From positions 1 through 64,000 of the IMG/VR virus record IMGVR_UViG_2872922060_000001: DNA of 64,000 nucleotides; one strand, written 5' to 3'. Every line of letters starts with the position of its first letter. Within the stretch, counting starts at the first letter, position 1. This DNA comes from a virus. Taxonomy: Duplodnaviria > Caudoviricetes. The translations under genes and the position numbers were made by a program. Below the pieces are notes generated by a model. It worked only from the letters and a program-made list of their open reading frames with translations, searched no databases and had not been told where the DNA came from. Positions 46,329 through 59,581 of this stretch are shown in pieces.

Positions 46329-46354
46329 ACCCGCTTCGAGCCTGGAGGACAACC

Positions 46355-46663
46355 GTGCATCTCAACCCGGACAGCGACGACTACCCCACCCCGTTCCGTG
46401 AGTGGATCACTGAGCAGGCGCACAAGGCCGGCATGGACGACCCCGCCGGCTTCGCCAGCCACTGGGCGCCCCACAACCGGTTCGACGGTCTCTCCGACGG
46501 TGATGCGGACTCGCTGGCGTGCTTGCTGGGGGTGGGCTTCGAGGAGGTGCGTGCCGCGCACAAGGCGGACATTACTGTGTGGATCCGTGACCGGGAGGTG
46601 GCGGAGCATCCTGACCTGGTGGTTTTGGACGCGGTGCTGGACGGGATCGCTCGGGGCGCCTGA
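46355..46663 (+). CDS. Hypothetical protein
   Basis: GGAGG RBS; hairpin plus T-run at ~46684-46728 downstream. Confidence 0.55.
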   Translation: MHLNPDSDDYPTPFREWITEQAHKAGMDDPAGFASHWAPHNRFDGLSDGDADSLACLLGVGFEEVRAAHKADITVWIRDREVAEHPDLVVLDAVLDGIARGA

Positions 46664-46748
46664 TCCCGGGGTGGGTGTGGTGGCAGCCCGTCGTCTGGCT
46701 GGAGGGCCAGGTGGCGGGCTGTTTTTCTGTGCCCGTAATATCGAACGT

Positions 46749-47087
46749 ATGTCCGGTCTGCCGCTTGATGCACGTCTCGCTAAGCTCCGCGCCTTGGAGG
46801 AATGGCTGGACTGGCAGCTGAACAACACGCGGCAGAAGATCCGCACCCTTGAAGCGCAGAGGGACCGGGAACAGCAGCAGGCGCAGCGGGCGTGGGCGGA
46901 GTCCCGGTGGAAGCTGGAGCCGGCCCGGGACCGGCGGACTGTCCTGCACCGGGGCGGGTGCGGGATCTGGAAGGGCGGGCACGGCTACCTGGATCGGCAG
47001 GAAGTCCTGCTCGCGCTGGAGGACGAGACGCTGGCCGTGGAGATGTGCGGGGTGTGCAACCCGGAGCCGGGGCTGCGGCAGGCCTAG
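46749..47087 (+). CDS. DUF6233-like protein
   Basis: Coiled coil, then 'W.LE...LH.G.C...AL...C..C.P'. Confidence 0.75.
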   Translation: MSGLPLDARLAKLRALEEWLDWQLNNTRQKIRTLEAQRDREQQQAQRAWAESRWKLEPARDRRTVLHRGGCGIWKGGHGYLDRQEVLLALEDETLAVEMCGVCNPEPGLRQA

Positions 47088-47980
47088 GCGCTGCGCCGCG
47101 GTTTCCGGGCCGTATTCTTCGCCGCGGCCTTACGCGCGGGTGCCTTCTTCGCGGTCCGCTTCGGCATCTCGTGGACCTCGGCCCGCCCGTCGTCACCGCG
47201 GGCCTCCCGGGCCTTGGCGACGGACGCGTTAAGTGCGGCCATCAGGTCGACGAGCTGGCCGGTCTCCGCGGCGGGCTCCGGTACGGCCGGCGGTTCGCGG
47301 TTCTCACGCTTCGCTTTGATCATCTCGGCTACGGCTTCCGTGTACGTGTCGCGGAAGTCCGGGCCCGTGAGCTCCTCCACGGTCATGGTGTCCATGAGGG
47401 CCAGGGCGCCTTCGATCTCCTCTTCGGACACGTCGACCGGGGGCGGGGTGAGGGACGCCGGGTCGCGGATCTCGTCCGGCCAGCGCATGGCGTGGAGGAC
47501 GATCGCGTCGTCCCGGACGCGCAGCAGGCCGAGCCGTTCGCGGCCGGACCAGGCGTAGCGGGCGACAGCGACACGCTCCGACCGGGCGAGGGCCTGCCGG
47601 AGCAGCTTGTACGGCTTGGCGGCGACCTGCCCGTCCGGCTGGAGGTAGTAGCCCTCGGCGATGCGGATGGGGTCGACGGACTCGAGCGGGATGAACGCGA
47701 CGATCTCGATGGCTTTCGCGGTCGGCAGCGGCAGGTCGCGGAGTTCCTGGTCGGTGACCGGGACGACGACATCGCGGGCGATCTCGTAGCCCTTGCCGAT
47801 CTCCGATGGGGAGACTTCGCGGTCTTCGAGCTCGCAGATTTTGCGGGTGCGGACGCGGCCCATGTCGGGCAGGTGGACGCGGTGGAAGTGGATCGAGTGG
47901 TCCTCGGTCGCTGAGACGACGTGAATCGGCACGGTGACCAGGCCGAATGAGATGGCGCCGGACCAGATGGATCGGGGCAT
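47084..47980 (-). CDS. ku: Ku non-homologous end-joining protein
   Basis: 'RSIWSGAISFGLV.VP', 'KGYE', 'YYL.P', 'Y.LLR.AL', 'WPDEIR' and 'DLMAAL..SV', with a basic tail. Confidence 0.96.
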   Translation of the reverse strand: MPRSIWSGAISFGLVTVPIHVVSATEDHSIHFHRVHLPDMGRVRTRKICELEDREVSPSEIGKGYEIARDVVVPVTDQELRDLPLPTAKAIEIVAFIPLESVDPIRIAEGYYLQPDGQVAAKPYKLLRQALARSERVAVARYAWSGRERLGLLRVRDDAIVLHAMRWPDEIRDPASLTPPPVDVSEEEIEGALALMDTMTVEELTGPDFRDTYTEAVAEMIKAKRENREPPAVPEPAAETGQLVDLMAALNASVAKAREARGDDGRAEVHEMPKRTAKKAPARKAAAKNTARKPRRSA

Positions 47981-48030
47981 GGCGAACCTCCGCGTGCGGC
48001 CCCGAGCACGTCCAGCCTACGAGCGGGCCG

Positions 48031-48080
48031 GGTAGTGTGCACGTGACGGTGCCCCGCCTGCTTACCTCAGGCGGGGCACC
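48031..48080 (-). repeat. 50-bp terminator-containing repeat, copy 2
   Basis: Matches 15207-15256. Confidence 0.9.
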
Positions 48081-48098
48081 GTTCTGTGTCTGATGGCC

Positions 48099-48218
48099 TC
48101 ATTTCTCGTCGGCGGCGAAGTGGTCTTCGGGGACGCAGCCACCGCCGGGGTGGAAGGGGCAGTAGTCGTCGGGGACGTCTACGTGCTCGAAGTCCTCGTA
48201 CTCGTCGTCGTCGCTCAT
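48099..48218 (-). CDS. 39-aa acidic peptide
   Basis: Starts at the conserved GAGGACACCGACCATG junction and ends 'DEK*'. Confidence 0.5.
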   Translation of the reverse strand: MSDDDEYEDFEHVDVPDDYCPFHPGGGCVPEDHFAADEK

Positions 48219-48229
48219 GGTCGGTGTCC

Positions 48230-48475
48230 TCACTTCTCGGTGGCGTGGTCGGTGGCTTGTGCGGCTCGGATCTCGTCGGCGGTGACCGTCTCGAAGTGCC
48301 ACCACCGTCCGCCCTCCCACTGCTCAACCTTGGCGGACTCGGCGGGGCTGTCGGCGCCCAGGCTGGCGCGGATGAAGGCGTAGGTCTTCGCCTCGCTGGT
48401 GAACGAGGACGTTGTCTCCACCTCAGGACCCGTGACGGTCACGCGCCACGGCTTCGACGGCTTCTTCACGGACAT
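48230..48475 (-). CDS. Hypothetical protein (paralogue of 15280-15540)
   Basis: KKPSKPWR...ATEK. Confidence 0.7.
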   Translation of the reverse strand: MSVKKPSKPWRVTVTGPEVETTSSFTSEAKTYAFIRASLGADSPAESAKVEQWEGGRWWHFETVTADEIRAAQATDHATEK

Positions 48476-48535
48476 GGTCGGCATCCTTTCTCCTTGGGAC
48501 CCCGTCCGGGTGGTCCGGGCGGGGTGTGGAACGGG

Positions 48536-49369
48536 TCAGGCGTTGCCTTGTGCTGTGAACTTCCCGCTCTCGCTGCGCGGGGCACCATGGCGTCCCTTTC
48601 CCGGACGAGCCGAGTGCGCCGCCTGCACCTGGTCGGCCGCGTACAGGCTCTCGCCGCCGCGCCCCGGCGCCCGGCCCACCGCGTGCAGTCCCCAGCGGGA
48701 CAGCTGCTTGCGGGCGCTGCCGGTCGCGGACTCTCCCTCGTAGCCGAGGTGTTCGGCGACCCGGCTGATCGGCCAACGCTCGTAGTCCCGGGTGGCGTAA
48801 GCGTCGAGGTCATCGACGTGCCACAGCGGCATCCGGCCGTTGAGGGCATAGTGGCGCGGCTGCGGTGCGTTGCCGGCTTTCTGGAGGAGGATCCACGCGT
48901 CGTTACTGACGACGATGCCGTGCTCTCCCAGGTAGCGCAGGGACTGGTCCCGGGTCAGGCACCGGTCCTCGCGCGCCGCGTCTGCTGACGGCACCCGCTC
49001 GTCGAGGGGTTCCATGCGGCTGCGCGCGCCGGCGATCGGCCAGGCGTCGTGGGGCATCTGGCGGGCGTTGTACTCCAGCCACTCCTCCGGCGTCGTCTCG
49101 GCGTCTCGCGGGAGTGGCTCCAGGTTGGTCATGAAGCGCAGGTCGGGCTCGGCGCCGATCCGGTCGGCTTCGGGGCCGGTGCCGTACATGTACTGGTGGT
49201 TCGGGCGGTCGCCTTTGGTCCGTCCGGTGTCGCACAGTACGCCGAGCGGCTGCTGCCCGAAGGACATGTGGATGGCCTCTGCCAGTGCGCGGGCCTTCGG
49301 AGTGAGAGTGTCGAGATCGACCTCAGCGGGCGCGGACGCCCTGCGGATCTTGAGCTTGACGGTGGTCAT
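48536..49369 (-). CDS. Protein with tandem AlpA/excisionase-like HTH domains
   Basis: 'APQP...GR.PLW..DDLD.Y' and 'VA.HLG...SARKQLSRWG....R...Y....V'. Confidence 0.65.
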   Translation of the reverse strand: MTTVKLKIRRASAPAEVDLDTLTPKARALAEAIHMSFGQQPLGVLCDTGRTKGDRPNHQYMYGTGPEADRIGAEPDLRFMTNLEPLPRDAETTPEEWLEYNARQMPHDAWPIAGARSRMEPLDERVPSADAAREDRCLTRDQSLRYLGEHGIVVSNDAWILLQKAGNAPQPRHYALNGRMPLWHVDDLDAYATRDYERWPISRVAEHLGYEGESATGSARKQLSRWGLHAVGRAPGRGGESLYAADQVQAAHSARPGKGRHGAPRSESGKFTAQGNA

Positions 49370-49398
49370 CGGCGCGTCCTTGGGTGAGGGCGGGAGGG

Positions 49399-49932
49399 TC
49401 ACATGTAGCGGGGGTTGAAGTACTCGTTGTCGCGGGCGTCGGCGGCGGCGTCCAGGGCGTCCTCGCGCTCCCACATCTCTTCGAGAGCCGCGTAGAAGGC
49501 GGGGGCCTCGTCGGCGAGGCGCTGGGTGTTGATGTGGTAGACGGCCTGGTCACCGTCGGTGTAGGCGAGTCCGAGGGTTTCCAGGGTGCGTCCGTAGTCG
49601 CCCCAGGTCTCCTGGGTCAGGCCGAGGTAGATCTTGTCTTGGCGGTAGGGGTCGTTGGTGGGGGTGACGGGGGTGCCGTTCTTGAAGGCGGCTTCGAGGG
49701 CGGTTGCCTCTCCGCGGATTCCGAAGGAGCCGTCCTTCATCTGGACGATGGTGCCGGTGGTGGTCATGGCCTTGGCCTTCCTGGCGCCGATGGCGATGCG
49801 GGCGGCGAGGGAGACGCTGTCGATGACCCACCGGCCGGCCTGCTTGGCGGCGGTGATGACTCCGCGGCGGCACCAGGTGCGGATGGTGGCGACGGTGACG
49901 TTGGCCTGGATGGCGGCTGCGGTGGTGTTCAT
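49399..49932 (-). CDS. N-terminal HTH_17/MerR-like domain protein
   Basis: 'MNTTAAA..A.VT.ATIR.WCR.G.I.A.K..GRWVID..SL'. Confidence 0.8.
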   Translation of the reverse strand: MNTTAAAIQANVTVATIRTWCRRGVITAAKQAGRWVIDSVSLAARIAIGARKAKAMTTTGTIVQMKDGSFGIRGEATALEAAFKNGTPVTPTNDPYRQDKIYLGLTQETWGDYGRTLETLGLAYTDGDQAVYHINTQRLADEAPAFYAALEEMWEREDALDAAADARDNEYFNPRYM

Positions 49933-49958
49933 CGTGGGTTCCCTCCCTGGCGATGACT

Positions 49959-49987
49959 CCATAATGCCTCACGATGAGGCGTTATGG
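49959..49987. promoter_or_regulatory. Inverted repeat in divergent promoter region (putative operator)
   Basis: ccataatgcctca-cga-tgaggcgttatgg, overlapping a TTGCCA -35 on the minus strand. Confidence 0.6.
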
Positions 49988-50052
49988 CAAGGGGGTTTAC
50001 CCGTCTCTATCCAGAAGATCCGTTTGTCAGTGCCACCAGCGAAGATGCCCCC

Positions 50053-50238
50053 ATGACGATCACCATGCAGAGCTACGCCTTCACCTGGACCGACCCGGAG
50101 GGCACACCCCGCGCGTCGGCTGTCGCCTACGACAAGGCCAGCGCGGACCGGCGGGAAAGGGAACTCGAGGCCACGGGCGCCACCAGCATCAGACGGGTGC
50201 CTGTGGCGCCCGGGGAACTGCCGGAAGTGGAGGGCTGA
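50053..50238 (+). CDS. Small hypothetical protein
   Basis: 61 aa, high GC3. Confidence 0.5.
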   Translation: MTITMQSYAFTWTDPEGTPRASAVAYDKASADRRERELEATGATSIRRVPVAPGELPEVEG

Positions 50239-50428
50239 CGCGCGTCCGCCCCGCCACGACGGGGGATGCGCGGACGGGGCGGACGGCTGGACGCTCGCCC
50301 GGCTATCAGCCGGCGACCTCCCGGGTGCCACGGTTTCCCGATGGCAGACGAGCGAGCACTACGCCCAGCATGGCACGTTGCACTGACAACGGTCCCCAGG
50401 GAGTGCGAGAAGCGGTGGCCGGGGCAGG

Positions 50429-50692
50429 TTACGGGCCTTCCTCACGCCGCCGGGCAAGGGCCCACACGGCCAGCGGCCACGGCACCAGCCCGATCAGGTA
50501 CACGAGTACGTGGCAGGCCGCGCACCGCAGCGGATACTCCCGCATGAGGGTTGCCATCTCGGGGTCGGTGCGCGCCACGTTCTGATAGTGCTGGCGGACG
50601 CTGCCGAGGGTGATGTCCAGTTCGGCAAGGACGACGATCCCGGTGATGAGGTACAGGCTGGTGAGGACGAAGACGGTGTCTTGCACGGTCAC
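50429..50692 (-). CDS. Small membrane protein
   Basis: Two TM segments; coupled. Confidence 0.5.
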   Translation of the reverse strand: MTVQDTVFVLTSLYLITGIVVLAELDITLGSVRQHYQNVARTDPEMATLMREYPLRCAACHVLVYLIGLVPWPLAVWALARRREEGP

Positions 50693-50907
50693 GGCCTCTC
50701 CCAGTCCCCGGTGTCGTTCGCCCCCTCCGCAACGTCGGCCTTGTGCTCGTCGATGGTGCGTTGCGTGTCCTGGTCGGCCACGATCCGCTGGAAACCGCAG
50801 GAGCAGAACACGGCCGTGGCGCCGGTTTGCTCACTGATCACCCAGTTGTTGTCGTCCACGTACTCGGTCGTGTCGCGCTCCCACGACATCTCATGCTGCA
50901 CGGTCAC
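50689..50907 (-). CDS. Small hypothetical protein
   Basis: GAGGTG RBS; CSCG. Confidence 0.5.
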   Translation of the reverse strand: MTVQHEMSWERDTTEYVDDNNWVISEQTGATAVFCSCGFQRIVADQDTQRTIDEHKADVAEGANDTGDWERP

Positions 50908-51362
50908 GGGTTCACCTCGTTTTCGATGATGCGGATGGTAGGGCATGGCCAGGGGACGAGGTACTGGTAGCCGTCGCCGCCGTCCTGGCTGCACGTGCCG
51001 CAATGGTTGGAGTCAGGGAAGCCGGAGCCGTCCGGTTGGGGTTTATGCAGGGCCCGGATCTTGCCGATGACGTCCAGGAGCTGCTGGCGGGTGGGCTTGC
51101 GGTACGGCTCCCACCAGTCCGGCGGGTCGACGAGGAGCGGCGTGGAGCGGCGTTCGATGGCAGCCTTCTCGCCACGTTCGTCGAGGTGCCGATGCCCGTC
51201 CGCGGTGAGGTGGAATGCCTCGTAGTGGATGTGAACGGTTCCGTCAGGGTGCGGGGCGAGGTACAGGTCGGCGTCGAGGGGGACGTCTTTGGGGCGGATG
51301 TTGTTGGCGGTGAGCCACGCGCAGAGTTCCTCGCGGCGGGCCTCGGCCGGGGCGCCGGCCAT
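50904..51362 (-). CDS. Hypothetical phage protein
   Basis: 'RALH.P...C..C...WPCPT' motif common in actinophages. Confidence 0.6.
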   Translation of the reverse strand: MAGAPAEARREELCAWLTANNIRPKDVPLDADLYLAPHPDGTVHIHYEAFHLTADGHRHLDERGEKAAIERRSTPLLVDPPDWWEPYRKPTRQQLLDVIGKIRALHKPQPDGSGFPDSNHCGTCSQDGGDGYQYLVPWPCPTIRIIENEVNP

Positions 51363-51670
51363 CAGGCACCGTCCTCTGTGGGCTGGAGGGCGACGTGCGG
51401 GTAGGCGCGTACGTGGGCCACGTCCTCGTTGGGGACGCTCTTGCCTCCGAGGGGCCTGGCCGGTGTTTCGGCCCAGCCAGCGTGGACGCTGGGGAAGACG
51501 ACGAGCTGGGCGCCTGATTCGATGCACAGGTCGTTGGCGCCGATGATGCGAATTCGGCCTTGGCGGAGGCAGATGGGATCGTGGCTGATGAAGGCTACGG
51601 TGTCGCCTTCGGTGAGGGGGCGGCCGCTGTAGTCGACGGCCTGGGGCTGGGGCGTGTCGCTGGTGGGCAT
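51362..51670 (-). CDS. Hypothetical protein (SH3/KOW-like)
   Basis: 'D..GRPL..GD.VA' start. Confidence 0.5.
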   Translation of the reverse strand: MPTSDTPQPQAVDYSGRPLTEGDTVAFISHDPICLRQGRIRIIGANDLCIESGAQLVVFPSVHAGWAETPARPLGGKSVPNEDVAHVRAYPHVALQPTEDGA

Positions 51671-51760
51671 GACTCTACGGTCCCGCGAATTCACGGGCGT
51701 CGTTCCCCTGGTTCTGTGCGCGGCCCGGCAGCGTGGGGGGGGAGGGCTGCCGGGTCCGGG

Positions 51761-52810
51761 TCAGCTGGCCCAGGTGCCGTGCAGCGCCGACGTGGTGAAG
51801 CCGGGCCCGTACGCCACCATCAGCACACCGGCGCCATCAGCCGGGGCCTGGTCGTGAGTGCGCTCCAGTACCCGCAGCACAGCGGGCCCGCCAAGATTGC
51901 CTTCCTCCGCGAGCGTGTCCAGGGAGTGCCGGGCGTCGTCCTCGGTCAGGCCGAGAGCGGTCGCGGTGTCGAGGATGATCGGGCGGGACCCGGGGTGGAT
52001 GACGGGGACGGTGACGGGCCGGCCGCCGAGCCAGTCGACGACGGCGGGCATCGCAGCACGGGCGCCGCCCGAGGATTTCTTCGTGGAGTCGAAGTGGAGG
52101 CCGTCGGGGTCGATGCGGCCCCAGTAGTAGTCGAGGGAGTCGGGGAGGACGTACTCGTAGAGGTCGCCGGGGCCGTGGATGGTGAGGCCGGGTCCGGTGG
52201 GGTGGGTGGACACGATGGTGGCGGCCGCGGAGTCCCCGAAGAGGGCTTTGTAGATCATGTGCTCGATGCCTGTATCGCCGTGCTGGTAGCTGGTGGAGAG
52301 GACTTCGGCGGCGACGACGAGGATGCGGCCTCCGGGGCGGAGGAGGGCTTGTTCGGTGGCGCGGATGAGGGCGTGGGCGCCGCCTGCGCAGGCTGCGGAG
52401 GTGAGGGCGGTGCGGTGGACGGCGGGGTTGAGGCCGAGCCGGCCCACGAGGTGCACGTCCAAGTTGGGAACGGACCAGCCGGTGGCGTGGGTGGTGACGA
52501 TGCCGGTGATGTCCGCGGGTGTCAGGCCGTGCTGGGTGAGGGCGGTGCGTGCGGCTTCCTCGGCCAGGTTCAGGGCGTCGTTGAACGCTTGTTGGGTGCG
52601 GGCGTGGACGTCGGCGGTGCCGGTGATGGTGTCCGCGGTGAGGGGCTGCGTGAAGTACCGGGACTGGACGCCGCAGTTGTTGATGACGCGGAGGATCGCG
52701 CCGAGCCGCGGGTGGTCGGGGTGGTGGGCGGCGATGTCGTCGGCTATCTCGCTGGTTGTGATCTTGTGCGGGGCGAGGACGGTGACGGGGCGGGCGACAT
52801 GGACGGGCAC
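51761..52810 (-). CDS. Type III polyketide synthase (chalcone synthase/RppA/PhlD family)
   Basis: Triad Cys (ACAGG), His (IHPGS), Asn (EGNLG); also 'ALFGDSAAA', 'AAEVLS' and 'AYGPGFT'; AGGGG RBS before GTG. Confidence 0.92.
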   Translation of the reverse strand: MPVHVARPVTVLAPHKITTSEIADDIAAHHPDHPRLGAILRVINNCGVQSRYFTQPLTADTITGTADVHARTQQAFNDALNLAEEAARTALTQHGLTPADITGIVTTHATGWSVPNLDVHLVGRLGLNPAVHRTALTSAACAGGAHALIRATEQALLRPGGRILVVAAEVLSTSYQHGDTGIEHMIYKALFGDSAAATIVSTHPTGPGLTIHGPGDLYEYVLPDSLDYYWGRIDPDGLHFDSTKKSSGGARAAMPAVVDWLGGRPVTVPVIHPGSRPIILDTATALGLTEDDARHSLDTLAEEGNLGGPAVLRVLERTHDQAPADGAGVLMVAYGPGFTTSALHGTWAS

Positions 52811-52944
52811 GGGCTTCCCCCTGGGGTGTGCTGACCTGGTAGGGGCCAAGGTACGGCGCAGTTGGCGTGATTGTTTCCCCTGCCGTTCGGTTTCTGCTCG
52901 CGCAGCGACCGAAATGCCGGGACAAACCCAGACCCAAGGGGTGT

Positions 52945-53769
52945 CTACTGGGCTTGGAGCATGGTTCGGCGTGTGGTGGTGCGGCGGGGGCCCGGCCGAA
53001 AAATGAGGATCATGAATCGTGATCCGGGGGCGGCCATGGGCTGCGCCACGCACATCGTGACCCAGCCGTCCCCTTCGGTGGCGTGCCGGATGGGCCGCTC
53101 GTCGCCGTCGGGGTGAATGCTCGCGCCGCCGGCTTCGTACAGGGGCCGGGATATGGGGTCGGCGAGGACGTCGTGCTCGATGTCGCGGAGGACGGTGTCG
53201 TCGGGGCGCTGTGCGAGGGCGGCGCGGAGCTGGGGCATGACGAACGGTGCCCAGGCGGTCGCCCAGTCGGTGAGCTGGTTCCGTCCGTCGAGGAGCATCC
53301 ACCGCATGGTGTTGGCGGGTGCGCGGCCGCCGTGGAACAGGGTGTGGAACTGCGGGTTGCAGGCGAGGACGTTCCAGGAGGCGTCGGTGACGTACGCCAT
53401 GTGGGTCATGCCGTTGACGGCGTCCTGCCAGGCGCCGGGTACCTGGTCGCCGGAGGTGTCGTACAGGGGGCCGGGCGGGTCTTCGCCGCGGGCGTACCGG
53501 CACAGGGCCATCCATTCCTGTTCGTTGAACTGGAGCAGGGTCGCGATGTCGCGGAGGAGGTCGGCCGGCGGGTTGGGGTAGGTGCCTGATTCGAGGCGGT
53601 GGCAGGTGCCGCGGGCCCGGTTGATGAGCTCGTCGACCTGGTGCTGGGACAGGCCGGGGGCGCGGCGTCCTTGCCGGTTGGGCCGGGTGAGGCCGTGTGC
53701 TTCGGGGGCTATGCGGGCGCGGGCGTCTTTGAGGAGCTTTTTCAGTGCGGGCTTGTCTGGTTTGTTCAC
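52945..53769 (-). CDS. MmyB-family regulator (XRE HTH plus PAS-like ligand-binding domain)
   Basis: 'RARI.P...GL....GRR.PGLSQ..V', 'RLE.G', 'AYVTD..W.VLA.N', 'N.MRW' and 'DW...WA'. Confidence 0.88.
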   Translation of the reverse strand: MNKPDKPALKKLLKDARARIAPEAHGLTRPNRQGRRAPGLSQHQVDELINRARGTCHRLESGTYPNPPADLLRDIATLLQFNEQEWMALCRYARGEDPPGPLYDTSGDQVPGAWQDAVNGMTHMAYVTDASWNVLACNPQFHTLFHGGRAPANTMRWMLLDGRNQLTDWATAWAPFVMPQLRAALAQRPDDTVLRDIEHDVLADPISRPLYEAGGASIHPDGDERPIRHATEGDGWVTMCVAQPMAAPGSRFMILIFRPGPRRTTTRRTMLQAQ

Positions 53770-54185
53770 TGGTGTGTTCGTCCCCCGGGGTTGCTGACTG
53801 CTCGGCAAGTGTAATTAGTGGGATGGTTTTTAATCCAAAAAATCTTCCGTAGAAAAGAGGTGGGTGTGTGATGCATGCTCAGTTCTGCGTGGCGCTGGCC
53901 TGCCAGGTTGTTGCTGGTGACCGCGTGGATACACTCGCCGGTAACCTTTGGCCAAAGATTGTTGGGCCGGTTTGTGAAGGGTTGCAGGCGGGTCCCGGGA
54001 ACTCCCGGTGGCTTTAGGCTGGTTCGGGCGCCGTTTCCCTTCGGGGAATCGCAGCGCGGCACCCGATCCCGACCACGAAGTCTTCACGGGGTGTTTCCGG
54101 ACGGTGCCCGGTCACGGCCGGTGCCCTACCGCCCCACTCCAGGGGCCTCGGCACCGGCCGCCGGCACGCCCAGGGCCTGTCACGA

Positions 54186-54674
54186 CTAGGACTGCCTAGT
54201 TGCGTTGGACGGCTGCACGCCCTTGAGCACAGCCAGCTCCCGCTGCGCCTCGACCAGCCGAGCCAGGTACTCCGCGGCCTGCGTCTTCCAGTCCGGTGCC
54301 GCGCCAGCCCGAATCCTGCCGGTCATGAACCGGTCCCAGCCCTCCAGCGCGTACTCCAGATCCCGGATACGGGCACGGAGCCCGTCGGGATCGCGGCCCT
54401 GCCGGAGTTCGGCGACCTCGGCCTCAAGGCGCCGTACGTCGGCGGCTGTGCGGGCCTTCTGCCGTTCCCGGCCCTTCTCGTAGCCCCGCATGAACGCGGC
54501 CTTGCGTTCCTCGCGGGGGCACTCCTCGATCCAGGGCAGGAGAGCAGCGGCCGCGTCCCGGTGTTCCTGGGCGCGTTCGGGGTTTTCCTGCTCGAGCTCG
54601 GCGATGCCCCGGTAGTCATACTCGCGGGATAGCTGGTCGGCGAGGCGCTGCTCGCGGGTGAGGTCTTCAGGCAC
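54186..54674 (-). CDS. Coiled-coil hypothetical protein
   Basis: Helical and charged. Confidence 0.5.
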   Translation of the reverse strand: MPEDLTREQRLADQLSREYDYRGIAELEQENPERAQEHRDAAAALLPWIEECPREERKAAFMRGYEKGRERQKARTAADVRRLEAEVAELRQGRDPDGLRARIRDLEYALEGWDRFMTGRIRAGAAPDWKTQAAEYLARLVEAQRELAVLKGVQPSNATRQS

Positions 54675-54900
54675 GACGGTCCTCAAGGTGTTGGTGGGCG
54701 TCGCGGTGCTCGCCGCAGGTCTGCCCGAACAGGTCGGCCCGGCAGTGCAGGCCGGGCCCTTCGAACGTGTGGTGGCCGATCGTGGCCACGCTGAACGCCG
54801 CCTGCTGGCCGGCGAGCGGCGCCGGCGTCGGCTGAGCGAGGAGAGCTTCCACGCGCTCAAGACGGCGAATGATCTCCCGTTTCGACACGAACCGCCTCAC
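54667..54900 (-). CDS. Small hypothetical protein
   Basis: GGAGG RBS; H..C..C...H. Confidence 0.5.
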   Translation of the reverse strand: MRRFVSKREIIRRLERVEALLAQPTPAPLAGQQAAFSVATIGHHTFEGPGLHCRADLFGQTCGEHRDAHQHLEDRRA

Positions 54901-55715
54901 GCGTCCTCCAGGTCTACGCCACCGACGAGTACGCGAAGCCGAGAGTGCCGGGACGGGCGGGCCGCCATCTCGTCCACCGAGGGCCAGTCGTCCGCGCAGA
55001 TCCCGTACTTCGGCGGCTGCCATCGGGGCCGGTAGTGCCGGTAGACCTTCTCCCAATCCGCCTTGAAGTAGCAGGGCAGCAGACCACCCGTGTTCGGGAT
55101 GGGCTCCGGAGCCTGCTCGTTCTGTGCGCGGACCTGCTCGGCGACGCGGTCGGCGTGATCCTTGTGCCGCTTGCAGAACCAGCGCGCGGTGATCCACCCG
55201 GTCCGGGGGTCCTTCTCGAGGACACGGTGGTGGGATTGGGCACCGCACACGCCGTCTTCGGTGCGCCAGTCACGGGGCGGGGTATAACCGGGCGTGACGT
55301 GCACGAATGTGGGCGGCAGCTTGTGCAGGCGGGTCGGCTCGGGCAGCCCGGCCTGGGCGCGGGGCTTGTAGGCCCTGGGGCGGTACGGGCGAAGGCGAGG
55401 GCCTTCGCAGGAGGGCGCTCCGGACGGGTACCAGTCGCCGGCTTCCCGGGGCGGCTTGTAGCGGGGCGCGTCGTCGGCGATGAGCCGGTCGTAGCGGGCC
55501 TTGCCGTGATCGACACCCAGCTTCCGGCGGGCGACCTTCAACGGGCTGACGCCGTCCTCACGCTTGGCGAGGTCGACGGCGTAGCCGATGGCGAGGAGGA
55601 GTTCCCGGGTCTCGTGGCCGACGCGGGGGTCTTCGTAGACGGCAGCGACGAACTCGGGGAACGTCCGCTTGGGGCGCTGTTCCTGTGCGGGGGCCGGTAC
55701 GGAGCGGAGCATCAT
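54897..55715 (-). CDS. Hypothetical protein
   Basis: GAGGAGG RBS; coupled string. Confidence 0.6.
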   Translation of the reverse strand: MMLRSVPAPAQEQRPKRTFPEFVAAVYEDPRVGHETRELLLAIGYAVDLAKREDGVSPLKVARRKLGVDHGKARYDRLIADDAPRYKPPREAGDWYPSGAPSCEGPRLRPYRPRAYKPRAQAGLPEPTRLHKLPPTFVHVTPGYTPPRDWRTEDGVCGAQSHHRVLEKDPRTGWITARWFCKRHKDHADRVAEQVRAQNEQAPEPIPNTGGLLPCYFKADWEKVYRHYRPRWQPPKYGICADDWPSVDEMAARPSRHSRLRVLVGGVDLEDA

Positions 55716-56038
55716 GCCTCCTCGTCGACTCGGTGGTCTGGGACCCGGGGCTCGTTGATGCGGCGGACTGTGACGGCGGGGCTGCGGGGCGGGGGCGGGT
55801 CGTTGCGGTGCTTCCACGCGTCCCAGTCCTGCCGCGGGTGGGCGAGGCACCAGGCCAGGTTCTCGGCGGCCAGCACGGCCCAGATCGCCCACCAGCGGGC
55901 ACGGTGGCGGCGGATGGACTGGTCGTACTTCGCCCAGTTCGCCCAGTCGGAGACGCGCCGTGCGGGCCTGTAACGGCCGAGGGCGTAGCCGGCGGTGACC
56001 AGGCCCAGGGCCGCGGCCGCGGCGGCCAGAGGGGTCAC
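55712..56038 (-). CDS. Membrane protein
   Basis: N-terminal TM, Trp-rich. Confidence 0.55.
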   Translation of the reverse strand: MTPLAAAAAALGLVTAGYALGRYRPARRVSDWANWAKYDQSIRRHRARWWAIWAVLAAENLAWCLAHPRQDWDAWKHRNDPPPPRSPAVTVRRINEPRVPDHRVDEEA

Positions 56039-56463
56039 GACACCGTCTCCAAGCTGATCTGCCGCTGGACGGCGGCGAGGACGCTTTCGGGGACGGTCCA
56101 CAGGCCGAGCTGCCCGCGGACTCCGAGAACGGGTTCTGGCAGCAGACGGACGCTTCCGATCTCCCAATGCCACGAGTCAGGGAATCCCCATGGGCGGCAG
56201 CAGCCGGTGTCCTCGTGGCAGCCGACCACGTCGAAGACGGCGATGATCGCCTTGCGGTAGAGGGGCCAGTCGGTCATGCCGTCGGTCAGTGCGCGCGGTA
56301 CTTGGCTGCTGGGGCGCGGGGTGCGGTCGTCGGCGGCGCCGGCGTGGAGGCAGAGGGTGGTTCCGAGCTGGTTGGCGGGGATGCGGCGGGGACGGTTCTC
56401 GATGCGCTTCGGGCCGTGGGCGATGGCGGCGGCCCACGGCTGTCGGACGGTCAGGGCTCTCAC
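56035..56463 (-). CDS. ASCH domain protein
   Basis: 'ALTVRQPWA.AI..G.K.IENR', 'LHAG' and 'RGQLGLW'. Confidence 0.85.
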   Translation of the reverse strand: MRALTVRQPWAAAIAHGPKRIENRPRRIPANQLGTTLCLHAGAADDRTPRPSSQVPRALTDGMTDWPLYRKAIIAVFDVVGCHEDTGCCRPWGFPDSWHWEIGSVRLLPEPVLGVRGQLGLWTVPESVLAAVQRQISLETVS

Positions 56464-57032
56464 GGGCTGGTCCTCTCGCAGGTGGGATGTTGGTGGGCAG
56501 CCGTACCCATGGCGTGCGGGTAGTCGTAGGCGCCGGGGATCGGCTGCCACGTCTCCCCATGGGCCCCGCAGGTCTTGCACCGCCATCGTTCACCGCCGTC
56601 GACCTGCTCCAGGCCGAACCGGGCATAGAAGGCGTCCAGCTCCGTCTTGCGTTCCTGGTAGATGGTGGTGCGCCGCTTGTAGTCCCTGTAGACGTTGCCC
56701 CGGTAGCGGGGGTCGTCGATCGTCTCGTTCCAGCCCGGCTGGTAGTCGGGGTGGTCGCGGAAGAGGCGGGCGAGGCCGCACATGGTGGTGCAGGGGACGC
56801 CGGCGGTGGCGGTGCAGGTGACGCAGGCTGCGGCGGAGCGGCCGCGGGCGTCGATCCAGATGTTGTGCTGGTTGGCGATGAGGTAGAGGGAGTCGATGCG
56901 GTTCAGTTCGGTGTCGCGGGTCTCGCCTGGCGGGAGCTGTTCGGCAGTCTGCTGGGCTTCGGCGAGGCGGGCGTACACGAAGTCCTCGCAGCGGAACTCC
57001 CACCGCCACGCCGGATCGTCTGGGCCGGTCAC
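56460..57032 (-). CDS. DUF6221-related hypothetical protein
   Basis: 'F..ARL.E...C..C....PC.T...LA..F.DHPDY..GW'. Confidence 0.6.
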   Translation of the reverse strand: MTGPDDPAWRWEFRCEDFVYARLAEAQQTAEQLPPGETRDTELNRIDSLYLIANQHNIWIDARGRSAAACVTCTATAGVPCTTMCGLARLFRDHPDYQPGWNETIDDPRYRGNVYRDYKRRTTIYQERKTELDAFYARFGLEQVDGGERWRCKTCGAHGETWQPIPGAYDYPHAMGTAAHQHPTCERTSP

Positions 57033-57421
57033 TGAGTGTCCCCTTCGGGGTCGTCTGCGCAGCCACAGCGGACTCCGCCGCTATGCCGGGGCGGGTCCGC
57101 AGGGACAGCGCGAAGGTTCGGGCAGCCGTCCGGGAAGGTGGGGCAGCGCTCGATGGTGGCGACGGCCGGGTATAGGTCGGGGAAGGCGAAGCAGGCGTTG
57201 ACGATGTCGGCGAGGATGGCGGCGTTCAGCGGGATCTGTTCGCCTTGCGGGTGCATGCTGCCGCGGACGTAGCCCATAACGGCGGCGTCCTGGAAGAGTG
57301 CGCGTTCGCGGTCAGTGAGGCTGTTGAGGAAGGCGTGGACTCTGTCGGCTCGGGCTGCCTGCCGCTTGGCGAAGTACTCGTTCAAGGCGGCGTCTACCTG
57401 GCTCTCGCGGTAGTCGGTCAC
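57029..57421 (-). CDS. Hypothetical protein
   Basis: GAGG RBS; 'LT.RE.AL..DAAVMGYV.G'. Confidence 0.6.
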   Translation of the reverse strand: MTDYRESQVDAALNEYFAKRQAARADRVHAFLNSLTDRERALFQDAAVMGYVRGSMHPQGEQIPLNAAILADIVNACFAFPDLYPAVATIERCPTFPDGCPNLRAVPADPPRHSGGVRCGCADDPEGDTQ

Positions 57422-57771
57422 AGGCGGGTCCTCTCGGAGGTGTCGGTGGCGGCGAGGATGGCCTTGCAGGTGTTCAGGTCTTCGTCGGCTTGGGTGAGCA
57501 GCTCTCCGCCACCGGCCCAGATCCGGGTGCGCGGCTCGTTTTCCGCGAAGACGACGAGGCCGTGTTCGACGTGGAAGGTGCGGCCGTTGACGCGGCAGGT
57601 CTCGGCTTCGCTCCAGTCGCGGGTGCACAGCCATACGCCGTGGGCGGTCCAGTACTCGGGGCAGGGCGTTGTCCAGATGGGTTCGCCGTTGTCGAAGGTG
57701 GCGGTGTAGAGGAAGACGGGGCGGATCTGTTGGCAATGCTGGCAGCGACCGACCCTGGGAAGCGGGTCCAT
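57418..57771 (-). CDS. Hypothetical Cys-containing protein
   Basis: GGAGG RBS; coupled. Confidence 0.55.
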   Translation of the reverse strand: MDPLPRVGRCQHCQQIRPVFLYTATFDNGEPIWTTPCPEYWTAHGVWLCTRDWSEAETCRVNGRTFHVEHGLVVFAENEPRTRIWAGGGELLTQADEDLNTCKAILAATDTSERTRL

Positions 57772-58190
57772 CACGCCTCCAGGGCAGCCGGGTCGCCGTC
57801 GGGCTCGCCGGGGTCGACTTCGGGGTGGGTAAAGCGGACCGGCTTGCCCAGGGAGCGGGCGTAGGCGATCTCCGCGCGGGTGGAGTCGCCGATGTAATCG
57901 CCGACGACCAGGACTTCGTCCGCGAGGCGGATCTTCGCGCGGTGCAGGTCGTCCAGGCGGGCCTTGAGAACTTCGGCGTCGGCGGGGTCGGCCCACAGGG
58001 GGTGGGGCTCCTTCATGTTGCAGCCGGGCTTTACGACGATGTGGCCGTTGGCGGTCTCGATGCGGTCGATTTCGGCCATGAGGTTCATGAAGCGGGTGGA
58101 GCCGCAGATGGCGACGATGCGGGGGATGCCGAGGCGGTTCTTGGCGTCGGCGAGTTGCTCTTCGGGGGTGAGGAGCTGGGGGTAGGTCAC
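57771..58190 (-). CDS. Nucleoside deoxyribosyltransferase-like (DUF4406-type) protein
   Basis: 'AICGS.RF', 'H..KI..AD.VLVV..YIG.ST..EI.YA...GKPV'. Confidence 0.75.
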   Translation of the reverse strand: MTYPQLLTPEEQLADAKNRLGIPRIVAICGSTRFMNLMAEIDRIETANGHIVVKPGCNMKEPHPLWADPADAEVLKARLDDLHRAKIRLADEVLVVGDYIGDSTRAEIAYARSLGKPVRFTHPEVDPGEPDGDPAALEA

Positions 58191-58320
58191 GGGTTCTCCT
58201 GGTCGAGGTGACGGGGGTTGGCCGTGGGGCGCTTCCCGGAGATTGCCTGTGGTAGACCAGCCTGCCGCTGTTTGGGCAGGGGGTTCCCTGTGGCGGTGGG
58301 GAGGAGGGTTCAACCAGGCC

Positions 58321-58352
58321 ACTGTACCGCGCTATGCATGGCACAGCAATGC
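58321..58352 (-). promoter_or_regulatory. Operator-overlapped promoter
   Basis: Minus strand GCATTGC-TGT-GCCATGC; TTGCTG-N17-TACAGT. Confidence 0.8.
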
Positions 58353-58510
58353 GTAGTGGGTGGGGTTGTTCAGGCGGCGCCGACCTCACCCCGCCACAAG
58401 ACGCCCCGTGAGACGCATGACCGCAGATGAGGCGCCCTGCCAGCCAACAGCGCCCGTGCGCCCCCCAAGCCCTCTGCCCCACCGGCCAGGCGCCGCGCAC
58501 CGTCGAAACC

Positions 58511-58738
58511 ATGGGCGCTACGAGGCAAGCACTGTGCGCGGGACGCGGGGACGGCAGCGACTGCCCGAACGGGGAAGTCCTGACGGTCGAGGACGGAGCT
58601 GCGGAGGTCCGGTGCGAGGAGTGCCGGCACTACTGGGAGCTGGACGAGACGGAGCCGGGCCGCCGCCCAGTCGTGGATGACGGGCTGACCCGGCCACTGG
58701 GGGATCCACGCGAAGCCGGCCACGGGACCGCGGCATAG
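58511..58738 (+). CDS. Possible small zinc-ribbon protein
   Basis: C...C...CEEC. Confidence 0.35.
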   Translation: MGATRQALCAGRGDGSDCPNGEVLTVEDGAAEVRCEECRHYWELDETEPGRRPVVDDGLTRPLGDPREAGHGTAA

Positions 58739-58808
58739 AACGGTGGCGTGAAGGACAGCACCAGCCCGCCCCGCCGTGGACGCCCGCCGACTAGCGCAGG
58801 ACGGGGTG

Positions 58809-59261
58809 CTACAGCACGGCGGCGAGGACGCCGGCCAGGGCGAGCGCGGTGATCCCGGCGCGGGTGCAGTCCACCGCGGCCCGGACCCGGCTGTACTTGC
58901 GGCGGGCCAGGGCGGCGAGAGCGCGTACCTCGTCCGGTCCCGGGCCGGCCGCCAGAGCGGCGGCCAACTCGTCGTGGGTCATCTCGGGCCACCGGGGCCA
59001 GCCGGGGCCGTGCAGGTTCGGTCGTACGGCGGTGAGGAGGATCAGTGTGGCGGTGAGGAGGAGGGCGGTGCCTAACCCGCCGGTCACGGTCACGGCGGCG
59101 GGGGGTCGGGTGTTGGCGGTGAGGGTGATGATGCCGGCGAGGCTGGTGCCGGTGAGGGCGAGGAGGAGGCTGGCTTTGGTGTCGCAGCGGGCGATGTGAG
59201 CGGTGAGGTCTTTCACGTGGTCGTGGCAGCGGTGGTCGGTTTCGGCCGGGGTGGTGGTCAT
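58809..59261 (-). CDS. Pycsar-effector-like (DUF5706) membrane protein
   Basis: 'I.R.D.KAS.LL', TM-TM, 'AVRP.L', 'LA.LA.RKY..VR.A' and a final TM. Confidence 0.8.
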   Translation of the reverse strand: MTTTPAETDHRCHDHVKDLTAHIARCDTKASLLLALTGTSLAGIITLTANTRPPAAVTVTGGLGTALLLTATLILLTAVRPNLHGPGWPRWPEMTHDELAAALAAGPGPDEVRALAALARRKYSRVRAAVDCTRAGITALALAGVLAAVL

Positions 59262-59348
59262 GAGCTGGTCCGTTCTATGTCGGGTGCTGGCATGGAAAAG
59301 CCCGGCCACAGTGGGGTCGCGGCCGGGCTCTGAGCGCGGAAGGCGTGG

Positions 59349-59528
59349 TCAGTCGCCGTAGTCCTCGGGCAGGCCATGGCGGCGCAGCCACTCGCCCTCG
59401 TAGTCGCTACGGCCGACGGCTTCGAAGGTGGCACGGGCGTCGTTGACCTCGTCGTCGGTCATCTGCGTGGAGGTCTTGTTCGCCCAGGTCTTGCCGGTGA
59501 GGTCGGGCCAGCGGTCGGCGGAGCCCAT
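59349..59528 (-). CDS. Small hypothetical protein (59 aa)
   Basis: GAAAGGG RBS; MGSADRWPD...EDYGD; hairpin at ~59299-59329 downstream. Confidence 0.5.
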   Translation of the reverse strand: MGSADRWPDLTGKTWANKTSTQMTDDEVNDARATFEAVGRSDYEGEWLRRHGLPEDYGD

Positions 59529-59581
59529 AGCGGTGCCCCTTTCGGTTGAGTGCCTGCTGGATGGGGTGTGGGTCTGGGCGG

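What the first reader, a model, noticed from the sequence alone, without database searches (positions are those of the whole stretch)
51761..53960. Phage-plasmid-borne type III PKS plus MmyB ligand-binding regulator: candidate small-molecule signalling circuit
Seen: an intact type III PKS (Cys-His-Asn triad) lies directly downstream of a co-oriented MmyB-type XRE/PAS-like regulator. An unusually AT-rich upstream region precedes the pair. It sits among small phage early-type genes, with no tailoring, ACP or transporter genes nearby. Known: Streptomyces type III PKSs (RppA, germicidin synthase Gcs, SrsA) make pyrones, resorcinols or THN from host acyl-CoA/ACP pools. MmyB-family proteins have a hydrophobic ligand pocket. 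Inference: synthase plus sensor could form a minimal two-gene polyketide communication system. It might control lysis/lysogeny or transfer (an arbitrium analogue with a non-peptide signal), or modulate host development or rival phages.
Basis: partly seen in the sequence, partly recalled or inferred. Interest (0 to 1): 0.85.

Follow-up and report, generated by a model that had tools for sequence, protein, structure and literature searches.

The report
Regulator plus polyketide synthase cargo module
A Streptomyces phage-plasmid carries a tightly linked pair of genes, a ligand-sensing regulator and a small polyketide synthase, but the same pair also sits in ordinary chromosomes, so it looks like a portable self-regulated metabolite module rather than part of the phage's own decision circuit.

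Summary
Window 51761-52810(-) encodes an intact, divergent type III PKS. Window 52945-53769(-) encodes a co-oriented MmyB-type regulator (XRE HTH plus PAS-like domain). An AT-rich segment (53795-53876) precedes the pair. The replicon (86,370 bp) is a pZL12-like phage-plasmid with head, tail and lysis genes plus ParAB.

The pair is an inseparable unit. The regulator lies directly upstream in 29 of 29 genome loci, in 31 of 31 close PLSDB hits and in 24 of 24 assessable IMG/VR contigs. The two proteins co-diverge (Mantel r 0.87).

The pair is not phage-specific. In 25 of 29 species-representative loci no other phage-plasmid gene lies within the flanks examined. Chromosomal and phage-plasmid copies interleave on the PKS tree. 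By cross-matching listings, 8 of 33 capsid-positive relatives appear to lack it. The conserved AT-rich promoter/operator-like element occurs once in the 8.1-Mb genome, at the module's own promoter.

Best reading: a self-contained, ligand-gated regulator-PKS cargo module with an unknown product. An autoinducer circuit remains possible (about 0.25). Control of lysis/lysogeny is unlikely (about 0.04). The PKS on pZL12-type plasmids is already in print; the module concept was not found in my searches.

The parts
51724..51754 (-). Hairpin just downstream of the PKS stop codon (9-bp perfect stem, 13-nt loop); terminator-like, without a T run
   Evidence: Inverted repeat I6. Fold energy -26.7 kcal/mol, but z is only -1.38 against shuffles. 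Not found by the T-run terminator scan. Its function is inferred.
51761..52810 (-). Type III polyketide synthase, 349 aa, divergent clade (records label it 'PhlD', 'polyketide synthase' or similar)
   Evidence: The catalytic Cys141/His272/Asn305 are invariant in 25 of 25 relatives. Nearest solved structure is THNS 1u0m (28% identity, TM 0.92). DpgA model scores 85.6 bits against a cut-off of 425.
52848..52880 (-). Conserved boxes in the regulator-PKS spacer: a G-rich box GGGGAAACA (52880-52872) and a -10-like TACCTT (52853-52848). Inferred separate PKS promoter.
   Evidence: A GTA-nn-TTG motif 40-60 nt upstream of the PKS start is visible in most of the 33 printed spacers (read by eye). No match in the sigma-70 consensus scan. 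Inferred, not shown.
52878..52921 (-). Imperfect hairpin in the spacer (20-nt arms, 75% complementary)
   Evidence: Inverted repeat I1. The whole spacer folds at z -1.62, not significant. Its role is unknown.
52945..53769 (-). MmyB-family transcription regulator, 274 aa: XRE-type HTH plus PAS-like ligand-binding domain
   Evidence: The GTG at 53769 follows a GGGGGA ribosome-binding site and matches the start position in relatives. The alternative TTG at 53808 would overlap the -10-like box.
53808..53856 (-). Conserved promoter/operator-like block upstream of the regulator: TTTTCTACGG, an inverted repeat AAGATTTTTT-GGATT-AAAAAC (core 53826-53846) and a -10-like TAATTACACT
   Evidence: Conserved in phage-plasmid and chromosomal copies. 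The 49-nt matrix scores 69.2 here and next best 14.8 (the same site on the other strand) on the replicon. No hit at or above 18 in the chromosome or the other plasmid. Binding by the regulator is inferred.
53795..53876 (.). AT-rich segment containing that block
   Evidence: One of three segments of the replicon with GC at or below 40% in 40 nt.
54115..54160 (-). Hairpin (11-bp perfect arms) after the upstream gene 54186-54686(-). Inferred to insulate the module from upstream transcription.
   Evidence: Inverted repeat I3. Fold energy -51.4 kcal/mol, z -1.74. Inferred.

Best explanation
The locus is a self-contained, horizontally mobile two-gene module, carried as accessory cargo (a 'moron') by a pZL12-family phage-plasmid.

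Shown:
- An MmyB-family regulator (XRE HTH plus PAS-like pocket) lies directly upstream of a catalytically intact but divergent type III PKS.
- The two genes are always adjacent and co-diverge.
- They travel with about 140 bp of conserved upstream DNA.
- They occur both on roughly 85-100-kb phage-plasmids and in chromosomes or large plasmids lacking the phage genes.
- On phage-plasmids they sit in a variable cargo slot.

Inferred mechanism:
- The regulator binds the AT-rich inverted repeat at its own promoter, so it autoregulates.
- When its pocket is filled by a small amphipathic ligand, it turns on the PKS gene from the separate promoter in the 134-bp spacer.
- The PKS condenses malonyl-CoA onto a starter from the host's acyl-CoA/ACP pool and releases a small untailored pyrone or phenolic product.
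- The trait serves the carrying cell. On the phage-plasmid it is lysogenic conversion. It is not wired into the phage's lysis/lysogeny or transfer genes.
For: Pairing:
- The regulator lies directly upstream and co-oriented in 29 of 29 genome loci.
- The same holds in 31 of 31 PLSDB records with PKS identity of 48% or more (coordinates, matched by hand).
- It holds in 24 of 28 IMG/VR contigs; the other 4 are cut at 2-62 bases upstream.
- It holds in phage ZL12, as pZL12.99 and pZL12.100.
- Co-divergence: Mantel r 0.87, 0 of 2000 permutations as high.

Self-containment:
- The upstream region is conserved across contexts.
- The element is unique in the replicon and in the 8.1-Mb genome.
- Chromosomal neighbours are heterogeneous: GNAT, Gfo/Idh/MocA, TetR, MFS, isochorismatase, SDR, NRPS, permease, SpoIIE and ligase.

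Not phage-bound:
- 25 of 29 loci have no other homologue of the replicon's 115 predicted proteins in the flanks examined (up to +-20 kb, less on short contigs).
- Phage-plasmid copies interleave with others on the tree; the label needs at least 3 changes.
- Of the 120 listed homologue clusters, 34 have a longest contig of 85-109 kb, 36 have one above 120 kb and 50 have shorter ones (my count).

Cargo slot:
- In the PKS-negative relative NZ_CP109172.1 the stretch between conserved genes g59 and g73 holds unrelated genes.

Family assignments.
Against: - No expression, binding or product data exist; no RNA run was listed.
- The operator is inferred from conservation only. The matrix includes promoter elements, so a shorter true operator elsewhere could be missed.
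- No motif shared between the regulator promoter and the PKS promoter was seen by eye. Direct activation of the PKS by this regulator is therefore unproven, and co-transcription remains possible.
- The flanking hairpins are not better than shuffled sequence (z -1.4 to -1.7).
- MmyB-type genes are usually divergent from their targets (PMC3406030, section 12 read). This co-oriented layout is atypical.
- The 8 'PKS-negative' relatives are inferred from absence among the 60 listed rows of 179 PKS matches and the 60 listed rows of 69 regulator matches. They were not searched individually.
- Retention in 25 of 33 capsid-positive relatives, over capsid identities of 47-79%, could mean that the module does matter to the element.
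Confidence: 0.5

Rival explanations
1. Autoinducer circuit. The PKS product is itself the diffusible ligand of the MmyB-type regulator. This gives a positive-feedback, cell-density-dependent switch, a LuxI/LuxR-like logic with a polyketide signal. The circuit is portable between chromosomes and phage-plasmids.
For: - Strict two-gene linkage and co-divergence in every context.
- No constant tailoring, resistance or export gene.
- The regulator has a PAS-like pocket of the MltR type. MltR held a fatty acid in the crystal, and the MmyB inducers are described there as amphipathic furans (PMC3406030, passages read).
- In a sister clade (about 43% identity) on S. anulatus and S. globisporus linear plasmids, the PKS instead sits tail-to-tail with a ScbR-family autoregulator-receptor gene in 2 of 3 records inspected.
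- Recalled precedents, not checked here: DAPG/PhlD-PhlF autoinduction, germicidins, photopyrones/PluR and dialkylresorcinols/PauR.
Against: - Linkage is equally expected for a pathway-specific regulator.
- No secretion or receptor-target evidence exists.
- No other candidate operator was found in the genome, so the circuit would regulate only itself.
- The ScbR association rests on two records.
Confidence: 0.25
2. Phage communication. The circuit lets the phage-plasmid count lysogens or infections, and steers lysis/lysogeny, copy number or transfer. This would be an arbitrium analogue with a polyketide signal.
For: - The module is carried by many related phage-plasmids: 25 of 33 capsid-positive PLSDB records and 28 IMG/VR contigs.
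- It lies among phage genes of unknown function.
Against: - The module occurs without phage genes in 25 of 29 genome loci.
- Basal lineages of the tree are not phage-plasmid copies.
- 8 of 33 relatives appear to lack it.
- It lies in a variable cargo slot.
- The operator-like element is unique to its own promoter on the replicon.
Confidence: 0.04
3. Chemical weapon or shield. The product is an antibiotic or an anti-phage small molecule that protects the lysogen from competitors or superinfection. The regulator is simply its pathway switch.
For: - Prophage cargo regions often hold defence genes.
- A PycTM-like (Pycsar effector) gene lies 6 kb away at 58809-59261.
- Streptomyces metabolites that block phage infection are cited in PMC10023795 (passages read).
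Against: - No PADLOC hit for either gene.
- No resistance or export gene travels with the module.
- PMC10023795 reports no BGC for known anti-phage molecules in prophages (abstract read).
Confidence: 0.1
4. Lipid or envelope remodelling. The regulator senses fatty acids or acyl-CoA, as MltR bound myristate. It induces a PKS that turns long-chain starters into alkylpyrones or alkylresorcinols for the membrane or spore coat.
For: - MltR was crystallised with a fatty acid (PMC3406030).
- Gcs and PKS11, which make alkylpyrones, are the second and third best structural matches.
- The motif after the catalytic Asn (GN-L-GG) resembles the aligned GNRGG of 3v7i (alignment).
Against: - The best match by sequence and fold is THNS, which I recall as a malonyl-primed enzyme.
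- No SrsB/SrsC-like methyltransferase or hydroxylase partner was seen.
Confidence: 0.08

Closest known systems
pZL12.99 / pZL12.100 of Streptomyces plasmid-phage pZL12 (phage ZL12, GQ919031)
   Same: - The same two genes in the same order and orientation on a 90,435-bp phage-plasmid.
- The PKS is 59% identical and the regulator 60% identical.
- The capsid, portal and tail gene set is of the same family.
   Different: - The spacer is longer (247 bp against 134 bp).
- The record annotates the genes only as 'transcriptional regulator' and 'type III polyketide synthase'.
- The 2010 paper could not be read here.
- A related 86.4-kb plasmid, pSLE1, is described in PMC4487206 (passages read). [quoted passage not shown]
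RppA / 1,3,6,8-tetrahydroxynaphthalene synthase (PDB 1u0m)
   Same: - The fold matches (TM 0.92, rmsd 1.9 A).
- The Cys-His-Asn triad and the GPGF loop align.
   Different: - Identity is only 28%.
- The module's PKS forms a separate clade, well away from the host's own type III PKSs (SH-aLRT 99).
- The product is unknown.
Germicidin synthase Gcs (PDB 3v7i)
   Same: - It is the second best match by sequence and fold.
- As recalled, its product is a Streptomyces autoregulatory germination inhibitor, a precedent for a type III PKS signal.
   Different: - Identity is 26%.
- Gcs is about 60 residues longer (413-residue chain against 349).
- No MmyB-type partner is known to me (recalled).
MmyB / MltR family of regulators (PDB 3pxp; Pfam MLTR_LBD)
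   Same: - It has the XRE HTH plus PAS-like ligand domain.
- Pfam scores lie above the cut-offs.
- The profile hits 3pxp (E 7e-4).
- The best fold match is 3pxp.
   Different: - 15 of 16 S. coelicolor paralogues are divergently transcribed from their target (PMC3406030, section 12). Here the regulator is co-oriented upstream of its presumed target.
- Sequence identity to 3pxp is 18-19%.
Arbitrium (AimP/AimR/AimX) of Bacillus phages
   Same: Only the proposed logic is shared: a phage-borne signal maker plus an intracellular receptor. My knowledge of the system is recalled.
   Different: - The signal there is a peptide and the receptor is a TPR protein.
- That receptor controls a phage lysogeny regulator next door.
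- Here no phage target is detectable, and the module also lives outside phages.
PhlD-PhlF (2,4-diacetylphloroglucinol) autoinduction in Pseudomonas
   Same: A type III PKS whose product feeds back through a ligand-binding regulator and acts between cells. This is recalled, not checked here. Many records label this PKS 'PhlD'.
   Different: - No PhlACB or PhlE partners are present.
- The regulator is MmyB-type, not TetR-type.
- The NCBIfam scan returned no PhlD model, so the label is untested.

Membership tests
Type III polyketide synthase (chalcone synthase superfamily) | Thiolase-like KS-III fold of about 350-400 aa | tested here: met
   The model has pLDDT 92. Foldseek TM is 0.92 to 1u0m, and 990 PDB matches have E at or below 0.001; every one of the listed top matches is a type III PKS.
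Type III polyketide synthase (chalcone synthase superfamily) | Catalytic Cys-His-Asn triad | tested here: met
   The residues align with the triad of 1u0m. C141, H272 and N305 are invariant in 25 of 25 relatives.
Type III polyketide synthase (chalcone synthase superfamily) | Pfam N- and C-terminal CHS domains above the gathering score | tested here: inconclusive
   The N domain scores 83.1 against 27 (met). The C domain scores 21.8 against 27 (below the cut-off).
DpgA (3,5-dihydroxyphenylacetyl-CoA synthase, NF042429) | Score above the equivalog cut-off of 425 bits | tested here: not met
   The module's PKS scores 85.6 bits. The host's own two DpgA genes score 611-622 bits.
PhlD (label carried by most database records) | Phloroglucinol synthesis; membership in a curated PhlD model | not testable with these tools
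   The NCBIfam scan returned no PhlD model. The label comes from the records' own annotation.
MmyB-like transcription regulators | N-terminal XRE-type HTH | tested here: met
   HTH_31 scores 30.9 against 27. The profile aligns to the HTH domains of 8bny and 3pxp.
MmyB-like transcription regulators | C-terminal PAS-like MLTR ligand-binding domain | tested here: met
   PF17765 scores 48.8 against 26.3. The best fold match is 3pxp (E 1.2e-8, 242 aligned columns), followed by PAS domains.
MmyB-like transcription regulators | Small-molecule control of DNA binding | not testable with these tools
   No coordinates or ligand docking were available.
Phage-plasmid of the pZL12 type | Tailed-phage structural and lysis genes plus plasmid partition genes on a separate replicon | tested here: met
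   The capsid is 47-79% identical to those of 33 Streptomyces and Kitasatospora plasmids of 85-152 kb. Lytic growth was not tested.
Phage communication system (arbitrium-like) | The receptor acts on a phage lysis/lysogeny regulator | tested here: inconclusive
   No second copy of the operator-like element was found on the replicon or in the genome. The true operator is unknown.
Conventional biosynthetic gene cluster | Tailoring, carrier, resistance or export genes conserved beside the core enzyme | tested here: not met
   Only the two genes are constant across 28 gene maps drawn from the 29 contexts. The neighbours scanned are heterogeneous.

The most novel reading that the evidence does not exclude
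The pair is a new kind of Streptomyces autoregulator system. A type III PKS makes a diffusible polyketide, and that polyketide is the ligand of its own MmyB-type receptor. Phage-plasmids spread this portable quorum-sensing cassette between species and may exploit it to sense the density of cells carrying the element.
Probability: 0.2. Interest if true: 0.85.

Novelty: new variant of a known kind. Interest (0 to 1): 0.5.

Why it matters
What is already in print: a type III PKS on pZL12-type plasmid prophages has been noted (the pZL12 record; PMC4487206; PMC10023795). It was set aside there because it is not part of a cluster.

What is added here:
- The PKS is never alone. It forms a conserved, co-evolving two-gene unit with an MmyB-type ligand-binding regulator and a conserved promoter/operator region.
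- This unit moves between chromosomes and at least one family of phage-plasmids.

Why it would matter if true:
- It gives a compact, directly testable system (two genes and about 350 bp of control DNA) for an open question in the MmyB family, namely what these receptors bind.
- It lets one ask what small polyketides do as cargo of temperate actinophages.
- If the product is the ligand, it would be a new class of Streptomyces signalling module.
- If not, it is an ordinary pathway-specific switch on an orphan PKS.

Tried and rejected
- RNA evidence: no RNA holder was listed for window 50000-56000, so expression could not be examined.
- The 2010 pZL12 paper (PMC2897331) is not held.
- Supplementary tables of PMC10023795 and PMC3406030, which list the prophage BGCs and the neighbours of MmyB paralogues, could not be seen. 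They may already list this pair.
- Literature searches that found no description of the pair or its function: 'MmyB' + 'type III' (one unrelated paper); 'type III polyketide synthase' + 'phage-plasmid'; 'phage-plasmid' + 'Streptomyces' + 'polyketide'; 'Streptomyces' + 'prophage' + 'type III PKS' + 'plasmid' (listing only); 'MmyB-like'.
- Megablast of window 44000-64000 against the phage collection found nothing. The protein search then found phage ZL12.
- The sigma-70 consensus scan found no promoter in 51500-54400.
- The three hairpins are no better than shuffled sequence.
- A possible leader ORF starting at a conserved ATG about 105 nt upstream of the regulator was considered and dropped. 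By eye it ends after about 8 to 36 codons in different relatives.
- There are no TTA codons in either gene.
- PADLOC and PHROGs have no family for either protein.
- The product could not be predicted. No model coordinates or reference sequences of characterised enzymes were available for a cavity comparison or a tree with named enzymes. The only outgroups were the host's own three type III PKS genes.
- Rows left out. The Mantel test used 33 loci and omitted L100, L102, L103, L105 (distant clade) and L038 (partial regulator match); L104 has no regulator match. The upstream alignment omitted L035 and L037-L040. G274 gave no PKS prediction in the gene maps, although tblastn found both genes there.
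- The script failed on a coding error and was corrected.
Full report
WHAT IS THERE

The window is bases 1-64000 of an 86,370-bp contig (69% GC) in a three-contig genome, beside a 7.9-Mb chromosome. A codon-position gene finder of my own predicted 115 genes on that contig.

The contig encodes these phage and plasmid functions:
- a tape-measure protein, a tail fibre and an endolysin;
- ParA, ParB, a Ku-like protein, a RuvC-like resolvase and a DNA methyltransferase;
- outside the window, a portal, a scaffold, a major head protein and a major tail protein.

It is therefore a phage-plasmid. Its nearest named relative is Streptomyces phage ZL12, also called pZL12.

On the minus strand, 51761-52810 encodes a 349-aa type III PKS and 52945-53769 encodes a 274-aa regulator. 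The spacer between them is 134 bp.

The PKS:
- Pfam Chal_sti_synt_N scores 83 bits; the C-terminal domain scores 21.8 bits, below its cut-off of 27.
- The DpgA model scores only 86 bits against a cut-off of 425.
- Its best PDB relatives by sequence are THNS 1u0m, Gcs 3v7i and PKS11, at roughly 26-28% identity. The catalytic Cys, His and Asn align.
- C141, H272 and N305 are invariant in 25 of 25 relatives.
- The AlphaFold model (pLDDT 92) superposes on 1u0m with TM 0.92.

The regulator:
- It has HTH_31 and the MmyB-like ligand-binding domain, both above their cut-offs.
- A profile of 24 relatives reaches MltR 3pxp at E 7e-4.
- Its model (pLDDT 81) finds 3pxp first (E 1.2e-8), then PAS domains.

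Upstream of the regulator, 53795-53876 is one of only three strongly AT-rich segments of the replicon.

The neighbours are small ORFs without a known function.

THE PAIR IS ONE UNIT

The regulator lies directly upstream and co-oriented in every set examined:
- 29 of 29 loci. These are the best matches among 40 of 400 sampled Streptomyces species genomes that hold a PKS homologue at E of 1e-50 or better.
- 31 of 31 PLSDB records whose PKS is at least 48% identical (coordinates, matched by hand). One pair spans the record origin, and two have gaps of 0.5-1 kb.
- 24 of 28 IMG/VR viral contigs. The other four are cut within 62 bases of the PKS start.

Pairwise identities of the two proteins co-vary across 33 loci (Mantel r 0.87; 0 of 2000 permutations reach it). 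The mean divergence is similar, 0.60 for the PKS and 0.61 for the regulator.

About 140 bp upstream of the regulator are also conserved, in phage-plasmid and chromosomal copies alike. This region holds a TTTTCTaCGG box, an inverted repeat of the form AAT-TTT / 5-8 nt / AAA, and a -10-like TAaTTAgACT.

In the spacer, a GTA-nn-TTG motif (TAnnTT, -10-like) lies 40-60 nt before the PKS start in most loci. A G-rich box lies about 25 nt further upstream (read by eye).

THE PAIR IS NOT TIED TO THE PHAGE

I took up to 20 kb on each side of the 29 genome loci; less was available on short contigs. I searched them with all 115 predicted proteins of the replicon.
- 25 loci hold no homologue other than the two genes.
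- Three loci (G026, G139, G369) are clearly the same kind of phage-plasmid.
- One locus (G346, on a 98.8-kb contig) shares a single further gene.

Several module copies lie on chromosome-sized contigs of 7.4-7.9 Mb. Three of them are 0.25-0.42 Mb from a contig end.

Their neighbours fall into several unrelated synteny groups. These include a GNAT, a Gfo/Idh/MocA oxidoreductase, TetR, MFS, isochorismatase, an SDR, an acyltransferase, an NRPS, an amino-acid permease, SpoIIE and a DNA ligase. Only the two genes are constant.

On a maximum-likelihood tree (42 rows, quick search):
- The module's PKS clade is separated from the host's own three type III PKSs (SH-aLRT 99). Two of those three are DpgA equivalogs.
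- Phage-plasmid copies interleave with the others. The window groups with two plasmid copies and two non-phage copies (support 100), and ZL12 groups with two chromosomal copies (support 98).
- The basal lineages are non-phage.
- The phage-plasmid label needs at least three changes.

In the wider protein collection, 367 clusters match at E of 1e-40 or better. All organisms named in the listing are Streptomyces, and the functional labels are generic. Of the 120 clusters listed, 34 have a longest contig of 85-109 kb, 36 have one above 120 kb and 50 have shorter ones (my count).

AMONG PHAGE-PLASMIDS THE MODULE IS COMMON BUT DISPENSABLE

Thirty-three Streptomyces or Kitasatospora plasmids of 85-152 kb carry a capsid 47-79% identical to this one.
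- By accession, 25 of them are in the PKS list.
- The other 8 are in neither the PKS listing nor the regulator listing. They were not searched one by one.

In one of these eight, NZ_CP109172.1, the conserved genes that flank the region in the window are present. The stretch between them, however, holds unrelated genes. The module therefore sits in a variable cargo slot, at the junction of the rightward and leftward gene blocks.

WIRING

A 49-position matrix built from 16 non-redundant upstream regions scores 69.2 at 53808-53856. The next best score on the replicon is 14.8, for the same site on the other strand.

The 21-nt inverted-repeat core has no other hit above background on the replicon. 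Neither matrix has any hit at the thresholds used in the chromosome or the other plasmid.

As far as this inferred element goes, the regulator's only recognisable site is its own promoter. Hairpins flank the module at 54115-54160, 52878-52921 and 51724-51754, but they do not stand out from shuffled sequence.

MECHANISM AND RIVALS

The best-supported reading is a self-contained, ligand-gated regulator-PKS module. It is carried as cargo and works at the level of the host cell.

Three steps are inferred, not shown:
- autoregulation at the AT-rich repeat;
- ligand-dependent activation of a separate PKS promoter;
- release of a small untailored polyketide.

The autoinducer version, in which the product is the ligand, is compatible with everything seen. 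It gains a little from a sister clade in which the PKS is paired tail-to-tail with a ScbR-family receptor gene in 2 of 3 records inspected. Another variant has an MBL-fold hydrolase between the regulator and the PKS.

Control of the phage's own life cycle is the least supported rival. The defence and lipid readings remain open.

WHAT IS KNOWN

- The pZL12 record annotates both genes.
- PMC4487206 (passages read) notes a type III PKS on the related plasmid pSLE1. It dismisses the gene as not part of a cluster.
- PMC10023795 (passages read) states that T3PKS were found only in prophages on plasmids.
- PMC3406030 (abstract, passages and section 12 read) describes the MmyB family. Its targets are usually divergently transcribed, unlike here.

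None of my five searches found a description of the regulator-PKS pair as a unit, of its chromosomal copies or of its function. Supplements could not be seen.

VERDICT

The synthase-plus-sensor module is plausible; the phage decision circuit is unlikely.
- It is a new variant of known kinds.
- Interest is moderate (0.5).

Noticed in passing
window 58809-59261 (-): A 150-aa protein with a PycTM (Pycsar effector) domain: Pfam 40.2 bits, PADLOC PycTM E 1.3e-10. It is one of only two predicted genes on the replicon with a TTA codon. Among the nearby ORFs I scanned, none gave a family hit that would mark a cyclase.
   Followed up: partly
L100 (NZ_CP109342.1) and L103 (NZ_CP108666.1), near the ends of linear plasmids: A sister clade of the PKS (about 43% identity) lacks the MmyB-type gene. 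Instead it sits tail-to-tail with a ScbR-family autoregulator-receptor gene, next to an ATP-binding protein and an HTH gene pair. A third record (L104) has an integrase there instead.
   Followed up: partly
L105 (NZ_CP108098.1); also the G143 and G167 contexts: An MBL-fold hydrolase gene lies between or beside the regulator and the PKS. In G143 and G167 it comes together with a second regulator paralogue.
   Followed up: no
L124, L126, L133 (IMG/VR contigs of 97.8-99.3 kb) and G346:C34 (98.8 kb): The module (48-52% identity) also sits on contigs of about 98 kb. For G346, only one further gene is shared with this replicon. This may be a second phage or phage-plasmid lineage carrying the same cargo.
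   Followed up: no
window 47084-47980 (-): A Ku-like DNA-end-binding protein (PHROG 4873, E 1.6e-64) is encoded on the phage-plasmid. Ku genes on other Streptomyces plasmids are the commonest megablast hits to this part of the window.
   Followed up: no
window 15890-15929 and 16696-16756: These are the only other strongly AT-rich segments (GC at or below 40% in 40 nt) of the replicon. They lie in a stretch where my gene finder called few genes.
   Followed up: no
window about 53870-53880 (-) and the equivalent place in relatives: A conserved ATG within a GCATGC/CATGATG motif lies about 105 nt upstream of the regulator start. The short ORF it opens is not conserved in length, so this is more likely a DNA site than a leader peptide.
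   Followed up: partly
G000:C1 around 437221-437592 and 6843012-6843587: The host chromosome carries two DpgA-equivalog type III PKS genes (611 and 622 bits). One lies toward each end of the contig.
   Followed up: no
G000:C2 71526-73850 (+), outside the window: A 774-aa protein upstream of the portal gene has only a weak FtsK/SpoIIIE-like PHROG hit (E 3.9e-5). Whether it is a terminase or a Tra-like transfer protein was not resolved.
   Followed up: no
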